From a virus (taxonomy: Duplodnaviria; Heunggongvirae; Uroviricota; Caudoviricetes), in IMG/VR virus record IMGVR_UViG_2778261162_000002, positions 1 to 8,789 of that record: 8,789 nucleotides of DNA. One strand, given 5' to 3'. The notes below the pieces were generated by a model. It was not told the origin of the DNA. It ran no database searches and saw only the letters and a list, made by a program, of their open reading frames with translations. A program made the translations under genes and the position numbers. Below are positions 6,428 through 8,745 of the stretch, piece after piece (position 1 is the first letter of the stretch; every line of letters begins with the position of its first letter).

Positions 6428-8436
6428 TATCTCGGTCCTGCGGTGAGTTGCTGGGTTAACTGTGAGTTCACACCCTTTTGACGGTCAACAGTCAAACGGG
6501 CAGCCTCGCGCGGATCGGAAACGCCGTGGATGTTAATATTCGTTTCCTGCTGAATCACCGGGGCGCTGTTGGGCATATTGCTCATCACTTTCGGAATGTA
6601 GTTACGCGTTTCCTGCGGCATTAGCCCCATGCCATAACGCTTAACATTCCCGATCCCCCAGTTATATGATGCCAGTGCTTTGCTAAGGTCTCCGCCGTTC
6701 TGCCGCAACAGCTGGCTAAGGTACTTAGCGGCTGCCTTGGCGGCCTTCTCCGGGTCGAAAACATCGTTCCCACGCAACCCCATATCACGCGCCGTGCCGT
6801 CCATAAACTGAAACAGACCTTTAGCGCCAGCGCCTGAAACAGCGAACTGATTACCTCCCGATTCCGTGATGGCCACACTGCGCAGCAAACCTTCATGAAG
6901 CCGGTAGAGCTGTTCCAGGTTGGTAAGCATCGGCTGCATCCATCCCAGCAACTCAGAGCCCGCTTTGGTTGGCTGTGGCCGCTTGACTGACTGGCCGAGC
7001 TGTTCAGGTTCATCAGTACCAAACCAGCCGCGCACCGTTCGGCCCACGCTGCGAGGATCGAATCCCCAGTGCTCTTTAATCCAGTCGGCGGTACCGTTGG
7101 CGCTGTCAGTAACCATCGGCATCGCTGACGGATTTTCGCTGCCCTGATTGAGCATCTGTTTGCCAATGCTGGCGGCATCAGCCCAGCGGCCATCTTTAAT
7201 GGCGTTGAGCAGGTCGGCGATCATATTCAGCATTTTGCTGAACTCGCCCATCTGGTCGATGAAGTTGCTGAAATCCCACTTCAGGGACCATGATTTGGGG
7301 TCAATATTGAGCAGCTTCGCCAGAGCTTTCGCCAGTTCGTTAACGGTCGATTTAAGGTCACGAACCATCTTCAGCGCGGCGTCGACTTCCGGTTTCCACT
7401 TGCCCCAGTCGATAAGGCTGTCGCCGCCCTCCTTCCAGGTCTGATAGTCCTCCCACAGAAGAGCAATCCCCGCCGCCAGCGCGGTAATGAGGCCAATCGG
7501 CGACATCCAGAACGTACTGTTCAGAATGCGCAGCGCAATCGTCAGTGCGCCAAACAGCGAGATCAGCTCCCGGGTTTGCTTATCCAGCGATTGCCACCAG
7601 GTAATAAGGCTGGATGTCCCCTCAATAAGCCGGAAGAACAACCGCCCGATGATGTCCCCGAGCGCCAGAATGCCTTTTATGGCTTTCGTCAGGGTCTGCT
7701 CGATGCGCGGGAAATTATCCAGGATATGACGGCGCAGCGTGTCCAGCGAACCCGCCAGACCACCAGCAAGATTAGAGCCGATTTTGTCACGGGCCATGCC
7801 TGCCATCGCGCCGAACTCGCGCATAGAAGTCATGAACTTATTGGAGCTTCTGGCCGCCTCGTCAGCATTAAAGCCGATAGCCTTCGCCATTGCGCTGTAG
7901 TGCCCGGAGAAACCGCCCACACCCCGGCGCATCGCCATGAGGGTGTTTTCGTCAATCCCCAGCATCTGCGCATACTGGTTAGCCCGGTAGTACGGCATGC
8001 TGCTGAGCTTCTGGCCGACACCCGTAAAGATAGCGGCCATGTCACGCATGTTACCGCTGGCGTCACGGGTCTGTACGCCCAGGCGATTCAGGAAGCCTTC
8101 CGCGCCGGGATTGTTACGCACAAATCGGGAGAGGCTTTCCAGAGAAGATCGCGCAGCGTCCACACTGCCACCAACCTGCGAAACCGCATAGCCAATAGAC
8201 TGAATCCCCTGTACCGTCGCGCCGGTGCGCTGTGACGCCCAGTAGAGATTATCCAGACCGGAGGCGATCTTAGCCGTGAAGGCCACCACGGTAAGCGCGG
8301 CACCTTCGACGGCCAGCCCCATTTTGATAGCGTTTGCGGTCGTGCCGGCCAGGACTGAATCGAACTTTTCCGCGCCAGCTTCGTCGATATCGAAACCAAG
8401 CGAGACGAGGAAATCTTTAATAGTCTCAGCGTTCAT
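6427..8436 (-). CDS. Tail tape measure protein with C-terminal lytic transglycosylase (SLT) domain, 669 aa
   Basis: Long ORF with RBS GGAGAGAGG upstream of the ATG at 8436. N-terminal half is Ala/Gly/Met-rich and helical, typical of tape measure proteins, with a hydrophobic stretch (LISLFGALTIALRILNSTFWMSPIGLITALAAGIALLW). The C-terminal region carries family 1 lytic transglycosylase motifs: AITESGGN (catalytic Glu-Ser), GAKGLFQFMDGTA (GLMQ-type) and ASYNWGIGN (AYNxG-type). Confidence 0.85.
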   Translation of the reverse strand: MNAETIKDFLVSLGFDIDEAGAEKFDSVLAGTTANAIKMGLAVEGAALTVVAFTAKIASGLDNLYWASQRTGATVQGIQSIGYAVSQVGGSVDAARSSLESLSRFVRNNPGAEGFLNRLGVQTRDASGNMRDMAAIFTGVGQKLSSMPYYRANQYAQMLGIDENTLMAMRRGVGGFSGHYSAMAKAIGFNADEAARSSNKFMTSMREFGAMAGMARDKIGSNLAGGLAGSLDTLRRHILDNFPRIEQTLTKAIKGILALGDIIGRLFFRLIEGTSSLITWWQSLDKQTRELISLFGALTIALRILNSTFWMSPIGLITALAAGIALLWEDYQTWKEGGDSLIDWGKWKPEVDAALKMVRDLKSTVNELAKALAKLLNIDPKSWSLKWDFSNFIDQMGEFSKMLNMIADLLNAIKDGRWADAASIGKQMLNQGSENPSAMPMVTDSANGTADWIKEHWGFDPRSVGRTVRGWFGTDEPEQLGQSVKRPQPTKAGSELLGWMQPMLTNLEQLYRLHEGLLRSVAITESGGNQFAVSGAGAKGLFQFMDGTARDMGLRGNDVFDPEKAAKAAAKYLSQLLRQNGGDLSKALASYNWGIGNVKRYGMGLMPQETRNYIPKVMSNMPNSAPVIQQETNINIHGVSDPREAARLTVDRQKGVNSQLTQQLTAGPR

Positions 8437-8745
8437 TATCCTCTCTCCATTTCTCTATACGGCGCTGGTTGTCAGCCTTAACGGCCAGGTGGTCATTCAT
8501 CAGCGCGATATCGCACAGATCGATTGATCCATCCTTCAGCGCGTAATAAGGGATTAACCCGGCATCAACCGGGTCAAGGAGATAAGACAGCCCGTCTGGT
8601 AGGCTGTTGAGGGTCAACCCTGAAGCTGGCCCGGCGTCGGGCTGGTAGGGCTCACGGGCAAAAAATTTCCCAGCGAATCGGCGACCACCCGCGCCACCAG
8701 CTGCAGCATGGTTAGCAGGTCGATATCATCGAACGTAAGCGTCAA
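8426..8745 (-). CDS. Tail assembly chaperone pair produced by -1 programmed frameshift (lambda G/GT or P2 E/E' analogue); start codon uncertain
   Basis: The zero frame is open from a TAG at 8784-8782 to a TGA at 8616-8614, with candidate starts TTG 8745, ATG 8709 or GTG 8697 and no convincing RBS. The -1 frame is open for about 100 codons (from a stop at 8728-8726 to the TGA at 8428-8426, 8 nt inside the tape measure gene) yet has no ATG/GTG/TTG before the track's TTG at 8617. The two frames are bridged by the heptamer T-TTT-TTG. The track's 63-aa ORF 8426..8617 is therefore most likely the tail of the frameshift product, not an independent gene. Confidence 0.4.
8659..8665 (-). promoter_or_regulatory. 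Putative -1 ribosomal slippery heptamer T-TTT-TTG (P2 E/E' type), overlapping G-GGA-AAT (lambda G/GT-like)
   Basis: Minus strand reads GGGAAATTTTTTG (plus 8659-8671 caaaaaatttccc). TTT (8664-8662) and TTG (8661-8659) are zero-frame codons, in phase with the zero-frame TGA at 8616-8614. A -1 slip continues into the frame that ends at 8426. Confidence 0.45.

What the first reader, a model, noticed from the sequence alone, without database searches (positions are those of the whole stretch)
8426..8745. P2-type TTTTTTG -1 frameshift site linking two chaperone frames upstream of the tape measure gene
Only about 44-56 codons of zero frame lie between the upstream gene's stops (around 8765-8784) and a TGA at 8614, while the -1 frame stays open for about 100 codons with no start codon of its own and ends 8 nt into the tape measure gene. 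The heptamer T-TTT-TTG, in the correct phase, bridges them and is nested in GGGAAAT, which resembles the lambda G/GT site. Two things are odd: the zero-frame part is unusually short for a G/E-type chaperone, and none of its candidate starts has a good RBS.
Basis: partly seen in the sequence, partly recalled or inferred. Interest (0 to 1): 0.6.

Follow-up and report, generated by a model that had tools for sequence, protein, structure and literature searches.

The report
Frameshift site in IS-truncated phage chaperone gene
The slippery TTTTTTG is the real, conserved -1 frameshift signal of a phage tail-chaperone gene, but in this contig an insertion sequence has cut off the first three quarters of that gene, which explains the odd short frame and missing ribosome-binding site; it is ordinary and already known.

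Summary
On the minus strand, T TTT TTG (8659-8665) lies in phase in a short zero frame (stop TGA 8614-8616). The -1 frame runs on to TGA 8426-8428, 8 nt into the tape measure gene (ATG 8436).

Both oddities have one cause. The window is a whole 8789-bp draft contig. Its last 55 nt (8735-8789) are the right end of an ISEc23-like IS66-family element: the tnpC stop at 8765-8767 and the terminal inverted repeat at 8735-8758. Phage DNA begins at 8734.

Intact relatives carry a 132-150-codon chaperone gene (Pfam Phage_TAC_15) between the tube and tape measure genes. They include E. coli TL20 (100% identical over the 435 nt compared), phage SEN34 and 100+ other loci. Only codons 112-150 survive here.

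Of 108 distinct homologous loci, 105 keep an in-phase TTTTTTG or TTTTTTT. These reach down to 33% protein identity. Amino-acid conservation switches from the zero frame to the -1 frame (Pfam DUF6889) at the heptamer.

Phage Mulock's GenBank record already annotates the homologous frameshift product. This is therefore a vestigial copy of a known lambda G/GT- and P2 E/E+E'-type frameshift. There is no detectable homology to P2 gpE. Low interest.

The parts
8765..8789 (-). 3' end of the IS66-family (ISEc23-like) transposase gene tnpC (...NVVLTNK*). The stop is TAA 8765-8767. The contig ends inside this gene.
   Evidence: Window 8735-8789 is 96-100% identical to IS66/ISEc23 copies in thousands of E. 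coli records. Annotated tnpC genes end at the same sequence.
8735..8758 (-). Right terminal inverted repeat of the IS (ATACGGTGCTCCGTTGACGCTTAC). Base 8735 is the outermost base, and the IS/phage junction lies at 8735|8734.
   Evidence: An intact 2532-bp copy (L125) has 24-nt terminal repeats at 225-248 and 2733-2756 with this sequence. It is flanked by an 8-bp duplication, GGTTTAAT. BLAST matches to many unrelated contexts stop at query position 55-60.
8614..8734 (-). 3' remnant of the tail assembly chaperone gene: the last base of codon 111, codons 112-150 and stop TGA 8614-8616. The start codon, RBS and codons 1-110 are missing.
   Evidence: The 435 nt compared (window 8300-8734, which includes this remnant) are 100% identical to E. 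coli TL20. In TL20 the gene is 453 nt (L004 3669-4121). Pfam Phage_TAC_15 matches profile positions 1-122 of 127 in the intact protein (E = 5.7e-32) but only 91-122 here.
8659..8665 (-). Slippery heptamer T TTT TTG, in phase. It is the -1 frameshift site of the family.
   Evidence: An in-phase TTTTTTG (96 loci) or TTTTTTT (9 loci) occurs in 105 of 108 distinct homologous loci. Codon choice is fixed only here: AAT in 16/16 and TTT in 19/19.
8665..8671 (-). Second in-phase heptamer, G GGA AAT, adjoining the first. It is lineage-specific and probably accessory or incidental.
   Evidence: It is present in most enterobacterial relatives but absent from L096, L106, L116, L117, L118, L121 and L122.
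8426..8658 (-). -1 frame extension read after the slip (AREPYQPD...KWREDNER, then stop TGA 8426-8428). It is the 'T-like' part of the fusion protein. The Pfam DUF6889 domain maps to about 8435-8551.
   Evidence: Pfam PF21829 scores 77.2 bits, E = 7.6e-22. It matches phrog_4364. The -1 frame protein is conserved from the first residue after the heptamer.
6427..8436 (-). Tape measure protein gene (669 aa) with a C-terminal SLT lytic transglycosylase domain. Its start overlaps the end of the -1 frame.
   Evidence: SEN34 and TL20 annotate the orthologue as the tape measure protein or a lytic transglycosylase.

Best explanation
The region is the 3' quarter of a tail assembly chaperone gene (Pfam Phage_TAC_15) from a SEN34-like myovirus prophage of E. 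coli.

In intact phages the gene lies between the tail tube gene and the tape measure gene. Normal translation gives a protein of about 150 aa. A minority of ribosomes slip back one base on T TTT TTG, 16 codons before the stop. They then read a further ~77 codons in the -1 frame (the DUF6889 domain) and produce a fusion protein of about 213 aa. This is the same logic as lambda G/GT and P2 E/E+E'.

In this genome an ISEc23-like IS66-family element ends at 8735. Only codons 112-150 remain attached to the frameshift site, with no native start codon or ribosome-binding site. The draft contig stops 55 nt into the repeat. The site is therefore a vestigial copy that very probably makes no functional chaperone here.

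Shown: the anatomy, the IS junction, the truncation, and family-wide conservation of the heptamer and of the -1 frame protein.

Inferred: that ribosomal slippage actually occurs in this family, and that the remnant is not expressed.
For: IS junction:
- Window 8735-8789 matches IS66/ISEc23 ends at up to 100% identity, and the rest matches SEN34-like phages.
- The inverted repeat and the tnpC end are confirmed on annotated copies.

Contig:
- The window is the whole of contig NTPL01000062.1 (8789 bp) of GCA_002463795.1.

Truncation:
- The TL20 prophage is 100% identical over window 8300-8734 and has a 453-nt chaperone gene preceded by tube and sheath genes.
- SEN34 has the same layout.
- All 15 listed members but one of the 649-member protein cluster are 150 aa.
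- Pfam covers profile positions 1-122 in the intact protein and 91-122 here.

Frameshift signal:
- 105 of 108 distinct loci, down to 33% identity, keep an in-phase TTTTTTG/T about 16 codons before the zero-frame stop. The -1 extension is about 79 codons and ends inside the tape measure start.
- Mean pairwise amino-acid identity is 0.70 (zero frame) against 0.51 (-1) upstream of the heptamer, and 0.36 against 0.63 downstream.
- Synonymous codon choice is fixed only at the heptamer.
- Most loci have no ATG/GTG/TTG in the first 45 codons of the -1 frame.
- Mulock's record annotates a joined 'tape measure chaperone frameshift product' at the homologous place.
- P2 uses the same heptamer in the same phase.
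Against: - No experiment on this family was found. Frameshifting is inferred from conservation and analogy.
- No conserved downstream RNA structure or upstream Shine-Dalgarno-like stimulator was found. P2 also lacks such a structure.
- The other IS junction lies outside the contig. Simple insertion and deletion of everything upstream cannot be told apart.
- tnpC and the remnant are on the same strand, and a TTG (8745) inside the IS repeat is in frame. Low-level expression of a hybrid peptide is therefore not strictly excluded.
Confidence: 0.9

Rival explanations
1. The window holds an intact but unusually short chaperone of 31-55 codons, with a working frameshift.
For: The zero frame, heptamer and -1 frame are all present and in phase. 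A gene caller did call a 52-codon ORF here.
Against: - Everything 5' of 8734 is IS66 sequence.
- All intact homologues have 132-150 codons.
- The fragment covers only profile positions 91-122 of the 127-position Pfam model.
- I see no good Shine-Dalgarno sequence before TTG 8745 or ATG 8709 on reading the sequence.
Confidence: 0.03
2. The -1 ORF (DUF6889) is an independent small gene translated from its own start. NCBI's PGAP pipeline annotates it this way (54 aa, start at 8590), and PHROGs treats it as a separate family.
For: RefSeq annotates a separate 'DUF6889 family protein' in TL20 and other genomes. phrog_4364 is a 54-residue family of unknown function.
Against: - The annotated start is a CTG (8590). 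The only TTG (8617) overlaps the zero-frame stop and is TTA in SEN34.
- Most loci have no ATG/GTG/TTG in the first 45 codons.
- -1 frame conservation (FFARTPRQRD...) begins at the heptamer, about 25 codons before the annotated start.
Confidence: 0.05
3. The fusion protein is made by transcriptional slippage: RNA polymerase adds one U on the T6 run. On this view the ribosome does not slip.
For: The site is a homopolymeric T run of six or seven bases. Both routes give the same protein.
Against: - From general knowledge, efficient bacterial transcriptional slippage needs runs of about 9 or more.
- The run is held at six or seven bases in strict X XXY YYZ phase, followed by G or T.
- According to the paper read, which cites Christie et al. 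2002, the identical P2 site is used for a -1 translational frameshift.
Confidence: 0.05
4. The two-frame arrangement is a sequencing or assembly indel in a single ORF.
For: Homopolymer runs are error-prone in sequencing.
Against: The same arrangement is found in 105 distinct loci from complete genomes, isolated phages and metagenomes.
Confidence: 0.01

Closest known systems
Phage P2 E / E+E' (Christie et al. 2002, as cited in PMC3091744)
   Same: - The heptamer T TTT TTG is identical and in the same phase (GGT TTT TTG in P2, AAT TTT TTG here).
- In both, the -1 extension has no start of its own and ends a few bases inside the tape measure gene.
- In both, no downstream RNA structure is evident.
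- Both are myovirus tail modules.
   Different: - No detectable protein homology: BLASTP E = 13, hhalign probability 1.1%, and no P2 gpE family among the Pfam matches.
- The intact chaperone is 150 aa, against 91 aa for P2 gpE.
- 14 zero-frame codons follow the heptamer before the stop here, against 6 in P2.
- The copy in this window is truncated.
Phage lambda G / GT and the conserved tail-chaperone frameshift of long-tailed phages (Levin 1993 and Xu 2004, as reviewed in PMC5009743)
   Same: The gene position is the same: between the major tail/tube gene and the tape measure gene. There are two products with a shared N-terminus, made by a low-level -1 shift near the 3' end.
   Different: Lambda slips on G GGA AAG (my own knowledge). 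The similar G GGA AAT here ends in an Asn codon and is not conserved across the family. The protein families differ.
Klebsiella phage Mulock 'tape measure chaperone' genes CPT_Mulock_014/015
   Same: It is a true homologue, with 63% protein identity to the intact E. coli chaperone. GGGAAATTTTTTG is identical. The depositors annotated a joined frameshift product.
   Different: Mulock's gene is intact. The window's copy lacks codons 1-111.
ISEc23 (IS66 family)
   Same: The 55 nt at 8735-8789 are up to 100% identical to ISEc23 copies. They include the tnpC stop and the 24-nt terminal repeat ending GCTTAC.
   Different: Only the last 55 nt lie in the contig. The element's body, left end and target duplication were not seen.

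Membership tests
Tail assembly chaperone pair with programmed -1 frameshift (lambda G/GT, P2 E/E+E' class) | The gene pair lies between the tail tube (major tail) gene and the tape measure gene. | tested here: met
   In intact homologues the order is sheath, tube, chaperone, tape measure (SEN34; TL20). In the window only the tape measure side is left. The IS lies upstream.
Tail assembly chaperone pair with programmed -1 frameshift (lambda G/GT, P2 E/E+E' class) | A second ORF in the -1 frame overlaps the 3' end of the first and has no initiation signal of its own. | tested here: met
   The -1 extension is about 79 codons. Most loci have no ATG/GTG/TTG in its first 45 codons.
Tail assembly chaperone pair with programmed -1 frameshift (lambda G/GT, P2 E/E+E' class) | An in-phase X XXY YYZ slippery heptamer lies in the overlap and is conserved among relatives. 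| tested here: met
   105 of 108 distinct loci have it. Codon usage is fixed at the site. Constraint switches between frames at the site.
Tail assembly chaperone pair with programmed -1 frameshift (lambda G/GT, P2 E/E+E' class) | Two proteins with a common N-terminus are actually produced in a set ratio. | not testable with these tools
   This needs mass spectrometry, western blotting or a reporter assay on an intact relative.
Tail assembly chaperone pair with programmed -1 frameshift (lambda G/GT, P2 E/E+E' class) | The first ORF is complete, with a start codon and RBS, in this window. | tested here: not met
   Codons 1-111 are replaced by the IS66 end at 8735.
Pfam PF21822 Phage_TAC_15 | A profile match above the gathering score. 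| tested here: met
   The intact homologue scores 111.3 bits over profile positions 1-122 of 127. The window fragment scores 26.4 bits (cut-off 22) over positions 91-122 only.
Pfam PF21829 DUF6889 | A profile match above the gathering score in the -1 frame. | tested here: met
   77.2 bits against a cut-off of 23.9, covering profile positions 2-40 of 40.
P2 gpE / gpE+E' protein family | Sequence homology to P2 gpE. | tested here: not met
   No P2 gpE family appears among the Pfam matches at E <= 0.01. BLASTP gives E = 13. hhalign of a 19-sequence profile against gpE gives probability 1.1%.
P2 gpE / gpE+E' protein family | The slippery sequence T TTT TTG in the zero-frame phase xxT TTT TTG. | tested here: met
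   The P2 record shows GGT TTT TTG with the frameshift annotated at the following base. The window has AAT TTT TTG.
IS66 family insertion sequence (ISEc23) | Terminal inverted repeats beginning GTAAGCG, with tnpC ending just inside the right repeat. | tested here: met
IS66 family insertion sequence (ISEc23) | An 8-bp target-site duplication flanking this insertion. | not testable with these tools
   The left junction is outside the contig. The reference copy L125 does show an 8-bp duplication. An exact look-up of the N-terminal fragment predicted for a simple insertion found nothing, which is inconclusive.

The most novel reading that the evidence does not exclude
The 13-nt tract G GGA AAT TTT TTG, kept unchanged in most enterobacterial relatives, may act as a tandem slippery site. 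It contains three consecutive in-phase heptamers. Such a site would raise or tune -1 frameshifting and would give two fusion isoforms that differ at one residue (Asn or Lys at the junction). Separately, the public resources checked here (PGAP, Pfam, PHROGs) treat DUF6889/phrog_4364 as a free protein of unknown function. It is really the frameshift-encoded 'T' domain of Phage_TAC_15 chaperones. Neither point concerns the truncated copy in this window.
Probability: 0.15. Interest if true: 0.3.

Novelty: already known. Interest (0 to 1): 0.1.

Why it matters
It matters little beyond annotation.
- The case shows how an IS junction at a draft-contig end can make a gene look unusually short and lacking a ribosome-binding site.
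- It gives comparative evidence that DUF6889 (phrog_4364) is the -1 frameshift extension of Phage_TAC_15 chaperones. RefSeq annotates DUF6889 as a separate gene in the E. coli prophages examined here.
- For the host strain, it implies that this prophage has a disrupted, normally essential tail assembly gene. The prophage is probably unable to make tails unless complemented.

Tried and rejected
- Downstream stimulatory RNA structure. The window's 95 nt fold with z = -1.35. RNAalifold on 34 diverse sequences gives about 0 kcal/mol, no better than column shuffles. Rejected.
- Upstream Shine-Dalgarno-like stimulator. G-rich motifs such as GGGGA and GAGGAG lie 11-12 nt upstream in some relatives, but they encode Gly-Asp/Glu and are absent from the window lineage (GCC GAT). 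Not supported.
- Broad synonymous-site conservation upstream of the site. A 32-nt stretch is invariant among close and some distant enterobacterial loci. In the 19-sequence codon analysis only the heptamer codons are fixed.
- Homology to P2 gpE. None was detected. The shared 'GGTGGTCG' and 'VV(G/A)..FL' near both sites is not significant.
- Solved structures by sequence. No hit.
- The same IS/phage junction elsewhere. It is absent from 5,426 complete E. coli genomes (no place covers the whole query) and from IMG/VR.
- Exact look-up of the N-terminal fragment predicted for a simple insertion, and of the 52-aa hybrid ORF. Neither is in the collection, so the result is inconclusive.
- Papers. The Mulock genome announcement does not mention the frameshift. 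No paper on frameshifting in SEN34-like phages turned up in the three literature searches made.
- The search for homologous proteins, the search of protein representatives and structure prediction were not run. The answer did not depend on them.
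Full report
**1. Observation**

The feature lies on the minus strand.

- The zero frame is open from 8781 to the TGA at 8614-8616. The candidate starts are TTG 8745 (43 codons) and ATG 8709 (31 codons).
- The codons AAT TTT TTG place T TTT TTG (8659-8665) in the X XXY YYZ phase needed for a -1 tandem slip.
- G GGA AAT (8665-8671) is in phase as well.
- The -1 frame is open for 99 codons (8725-8429) and stops at TGA 8426-8428. The 669-codon tape measure gene starts at ATG 8436.
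- The heptamer alone is not statistically remarkable: there are 4 copies in the window against 1.75 expected.

**2. What lies upstream**

A megablast of 7900-8789 split the query.

- Bases 8735-8789 matched unrelated places at up to 100% identity.
- Bases 7901-8734 matched SEN34-like myoviruses at 72-92%.

Against complete E. coli genomes, the first 55-60 nt matched thousands of IS66-family (ISEc23) transposase ends. The remainder matched prophages that annotate a 'phage tail assembly chaperone', a 'DUF6889 family protein' and a 'lytic transglycosylase'.

Annotated IS copies show three things.

- tnpC ends ...WNVVLTNK*, with its stop at window 8765-8767.
- An intact 2532-bp copy has 24-nt terminal inverted repeats, GTAAGCGTAAACTGACCGCCGTAT and ATACGGTGCTCCGTTGACGCTTAC.
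- That copy is flanked by an 8-bp duplication.

The right repeat is window 8735-8758, so the IS ends exactly at 8735.

The window is the whole of contig NTPL01000062.1 (8789 bp) of assembly GCA_002463795.1. The contig runs 55 nt into the repeat and stops. I infer that this is the usual behaviour of a short-read assembler with a 55-nt word size.

**3. The intact gene**

E. coli TL20 is 100% identical to window 8300-8734. It carries a 453-nt chaperone gene preceded by tail tube (DUF3277) and sheath (DUF3383) genes. SEN34 has the same order.

The alignment shows that the window keeps the last base of codon 111 and codons 112-150.

- Pfam Phage_TAC_15 covers profile positions 1-122 of 127 in the intact protein (111 bits).
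- It covers only positions 91-122 in the window's ORF (26 bits).
- The exact 150-aa protein lies in a 649-member cluster. Of the 15 listed members, 14 are 150 aa and one is a 131-aa partial.

The 'unusually short zero frame' and the absent RBS are therefore consequences of truncation by the IS. The in-frame TTG at 8745 lies inside the IS inverted repeat.

**4. Is the frameshift signal real in the family?**

I collected 80 viral loci and 36 genome loci. They reach down to 33% protein identity and include Pantoea, Serratia, Yersinia, Xenorhabdus, Arsenophonus and a Rhizobiales MAG.

Conservation of the site:
- Of 108 distinct loci, 96 have an in-phase TTTTTTG and 9 an in-phase TTTTTTT.
- The three without are two decayed genes (L094, L120) and one contig end (L065).
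- The heptamer sits about 16 codons before the zero-frame stop.
- The -1 frame then runs about 79 codons and ends just inside the tape measure gene.

Evidence that the -1 frame is read from the heptamer:
- Its product (FFARTPRQRD...GLTLESLPDG...VDLxDIAxMNDxL...KWRxxNER) is conserved from the very first residue after the heptamer.
- Mean pairwise amino-acid identity is 0.70 (zero frame) against 0.51 (-1 frame) upstream of the site. It is 0.36 against 0.63 downstream.
- Among conserved residues, only the heptamer codons are fixed: AAT 16/16 and TTT 19/19, against 0.3-0.9 elsewhere.
- Most loci have no ATG/GTG/TTG in the first 45 codons of the -1 frame.
- The 54-aa 'DUF6889' gene annotated in RefSeq starts at a CTG (window 8590).
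- The -1 part matches Pfam DUF6889 (77 bits) and phrog_4364, 'unknown function'.

No stimulatory RNA structure is evident.

**5. Comparison with known systems**

- The depositors of Klebsiella phage Mulock annotated a joined 'tape measure chaperone frameshift product' at the homologous gene. Mulock shares 63% protein identity with the intact E. coli chaperone and has an identical GGGAAATTTTTTG. The site is therefore already recognised in a public record.
- Functionally it belongs with lambda G/GT and P2 E/E+E' (PMC5009743; PMC3091744).
- The P2 record shows GGT TTT TTG with the shift annotated right after it, and E+E' ends 8 nt into gene T. Heptamer and phase are the same as here.
- The proteins are not detectably related: BLASTP E = 13, hhalign probability 1.1%, and no P2 gpE family among the Pfam matches.
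- GGGAAAT resembles lambda's G GGA AAG (my own knowledge). It ends in an Asn codon and is missing from 7 of 34 diverse relatives. It is not the essential element.

**6. Mechanism and state in this genome**

In intact phages, ribosomes with tRNA-Phe and tRNA-Leu on TTT TTG slip back to TTT TTT and continue in the -1 frame. This links the chaperone domain to the DUF6889 domain. By analogy with lambda gpGT, that domain would recruit tube protein to the chaperone-coated tape measure. This is inference, not something shown for this family.

In this window the cassette is vestigial. The chaperone domain is 74% missing and there is no native promoter-proximal context, start codon or RBS. tnpC lies on the same strand, so read-through transcription is conceivable. 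Any product would still lack the chaperone fold.

Whether the IS is a simple insertion, with the remaining prophage on another contig, or marks a deletion cannot be decided from this contig. The junction was not found elsewhere, and an exact look-up of the predicted N-terminal fragment was negative.

**7. Verdict**

This is a genuine, conserved frameshift signal, but it sits in an IS-truncated gene.
- It is 'P2-type' only in the heptamer.
- The kind of feature is already known.
- Interest is low.

Noticed in passing
window 1-392 (minus strand): An ORF starts at ATG 390-392, overlapping the stop of the upstream 226-aa wedge gene (ATGA). It runs off the contig at base 1 after about 130 codons and looks like the N-terminus of a tail fibre protein. 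Both contig ends therefore fall in sequence likely to be repeated in the genome: a tail fibre gene and an IS.
   Followed up: no
window 8426-8590; L004 4145-4309; L005 2651-2815: RefSeq (PGAP) annotates the -1 frame as a free-standing 54-aa 'DUF6889 family protein' beginning at a CTG codon. PHROGs holds it as phrog_4364, 'unknown function'. Comparative evidence says it is the frameshift extension of the chaperone, so the RefSeq prophage records examined here lack the fusion CDS.
   Followed up: partly
window 8735-8789: The contig reaches exactly 55 nt into the IS66 element. This looks like the word size of a de Bruijn assembler. The junction itself should then be read-supported, but nothing beyond it is placed.
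   Followed up: no
L113 1857-2633 (Izhakiella australiensis): Here the -1 frame after the heptamer stays open for 258 codons instead of about 79. The DUF6889 part breaks off after '...VDLAD' and continues into unrelated sequence. This suggests a deletion that fuses it to a downstream tail gene.
   Followed up: no
L094, L117, L120: These are decayed copies of the chaperone cassette. L094 (Apirhabdus) has a frameshifted zero frame. L117 (an Arsenophonus MAG) has a stop 11 codons into the -1 frame. L120 (an Arsenophonus endosymbiont) has a fragmented gene.
   Followed up: no
L126 670-685 (phage P2) and window 8683-8690: P2 and this family both have GGTGGTCG upstream of the heptamer, 1 nt upstream in P2 and 17 nt here. 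Both have a '(K/R)VV(G/A)...FL' peptide. hhalign aligns these stretches but at probability 1.1%. This is chance or very remote ancestry and is not resolvable here.
   Followed up: partly
window 6427-8436: The tape measure protein carries a C-terminal SLT lytic transglycosylase domain (residues 508-603, 86 bits). RefSeq therefore names the gene 'lytic transglycosylase' rather than tape measure.
   Followed up: no
window 8697-8728 and alignment A1 columns about 390-422: A 32-nt stretch upstream of the heptamer (ATGCTGCAGCTGGTGGCGCGGGTGGTCGCCGA) is identical in E. coli, SEN34 and Mulock. It is also identical in loci with only about 60% protein identity (L104, and nearly so in L100/L103). It is not kept in Pantoea or Serratia relatives. 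It may be a recombination joint between mosaic modules rather than a functional element.
   Followed up: partly
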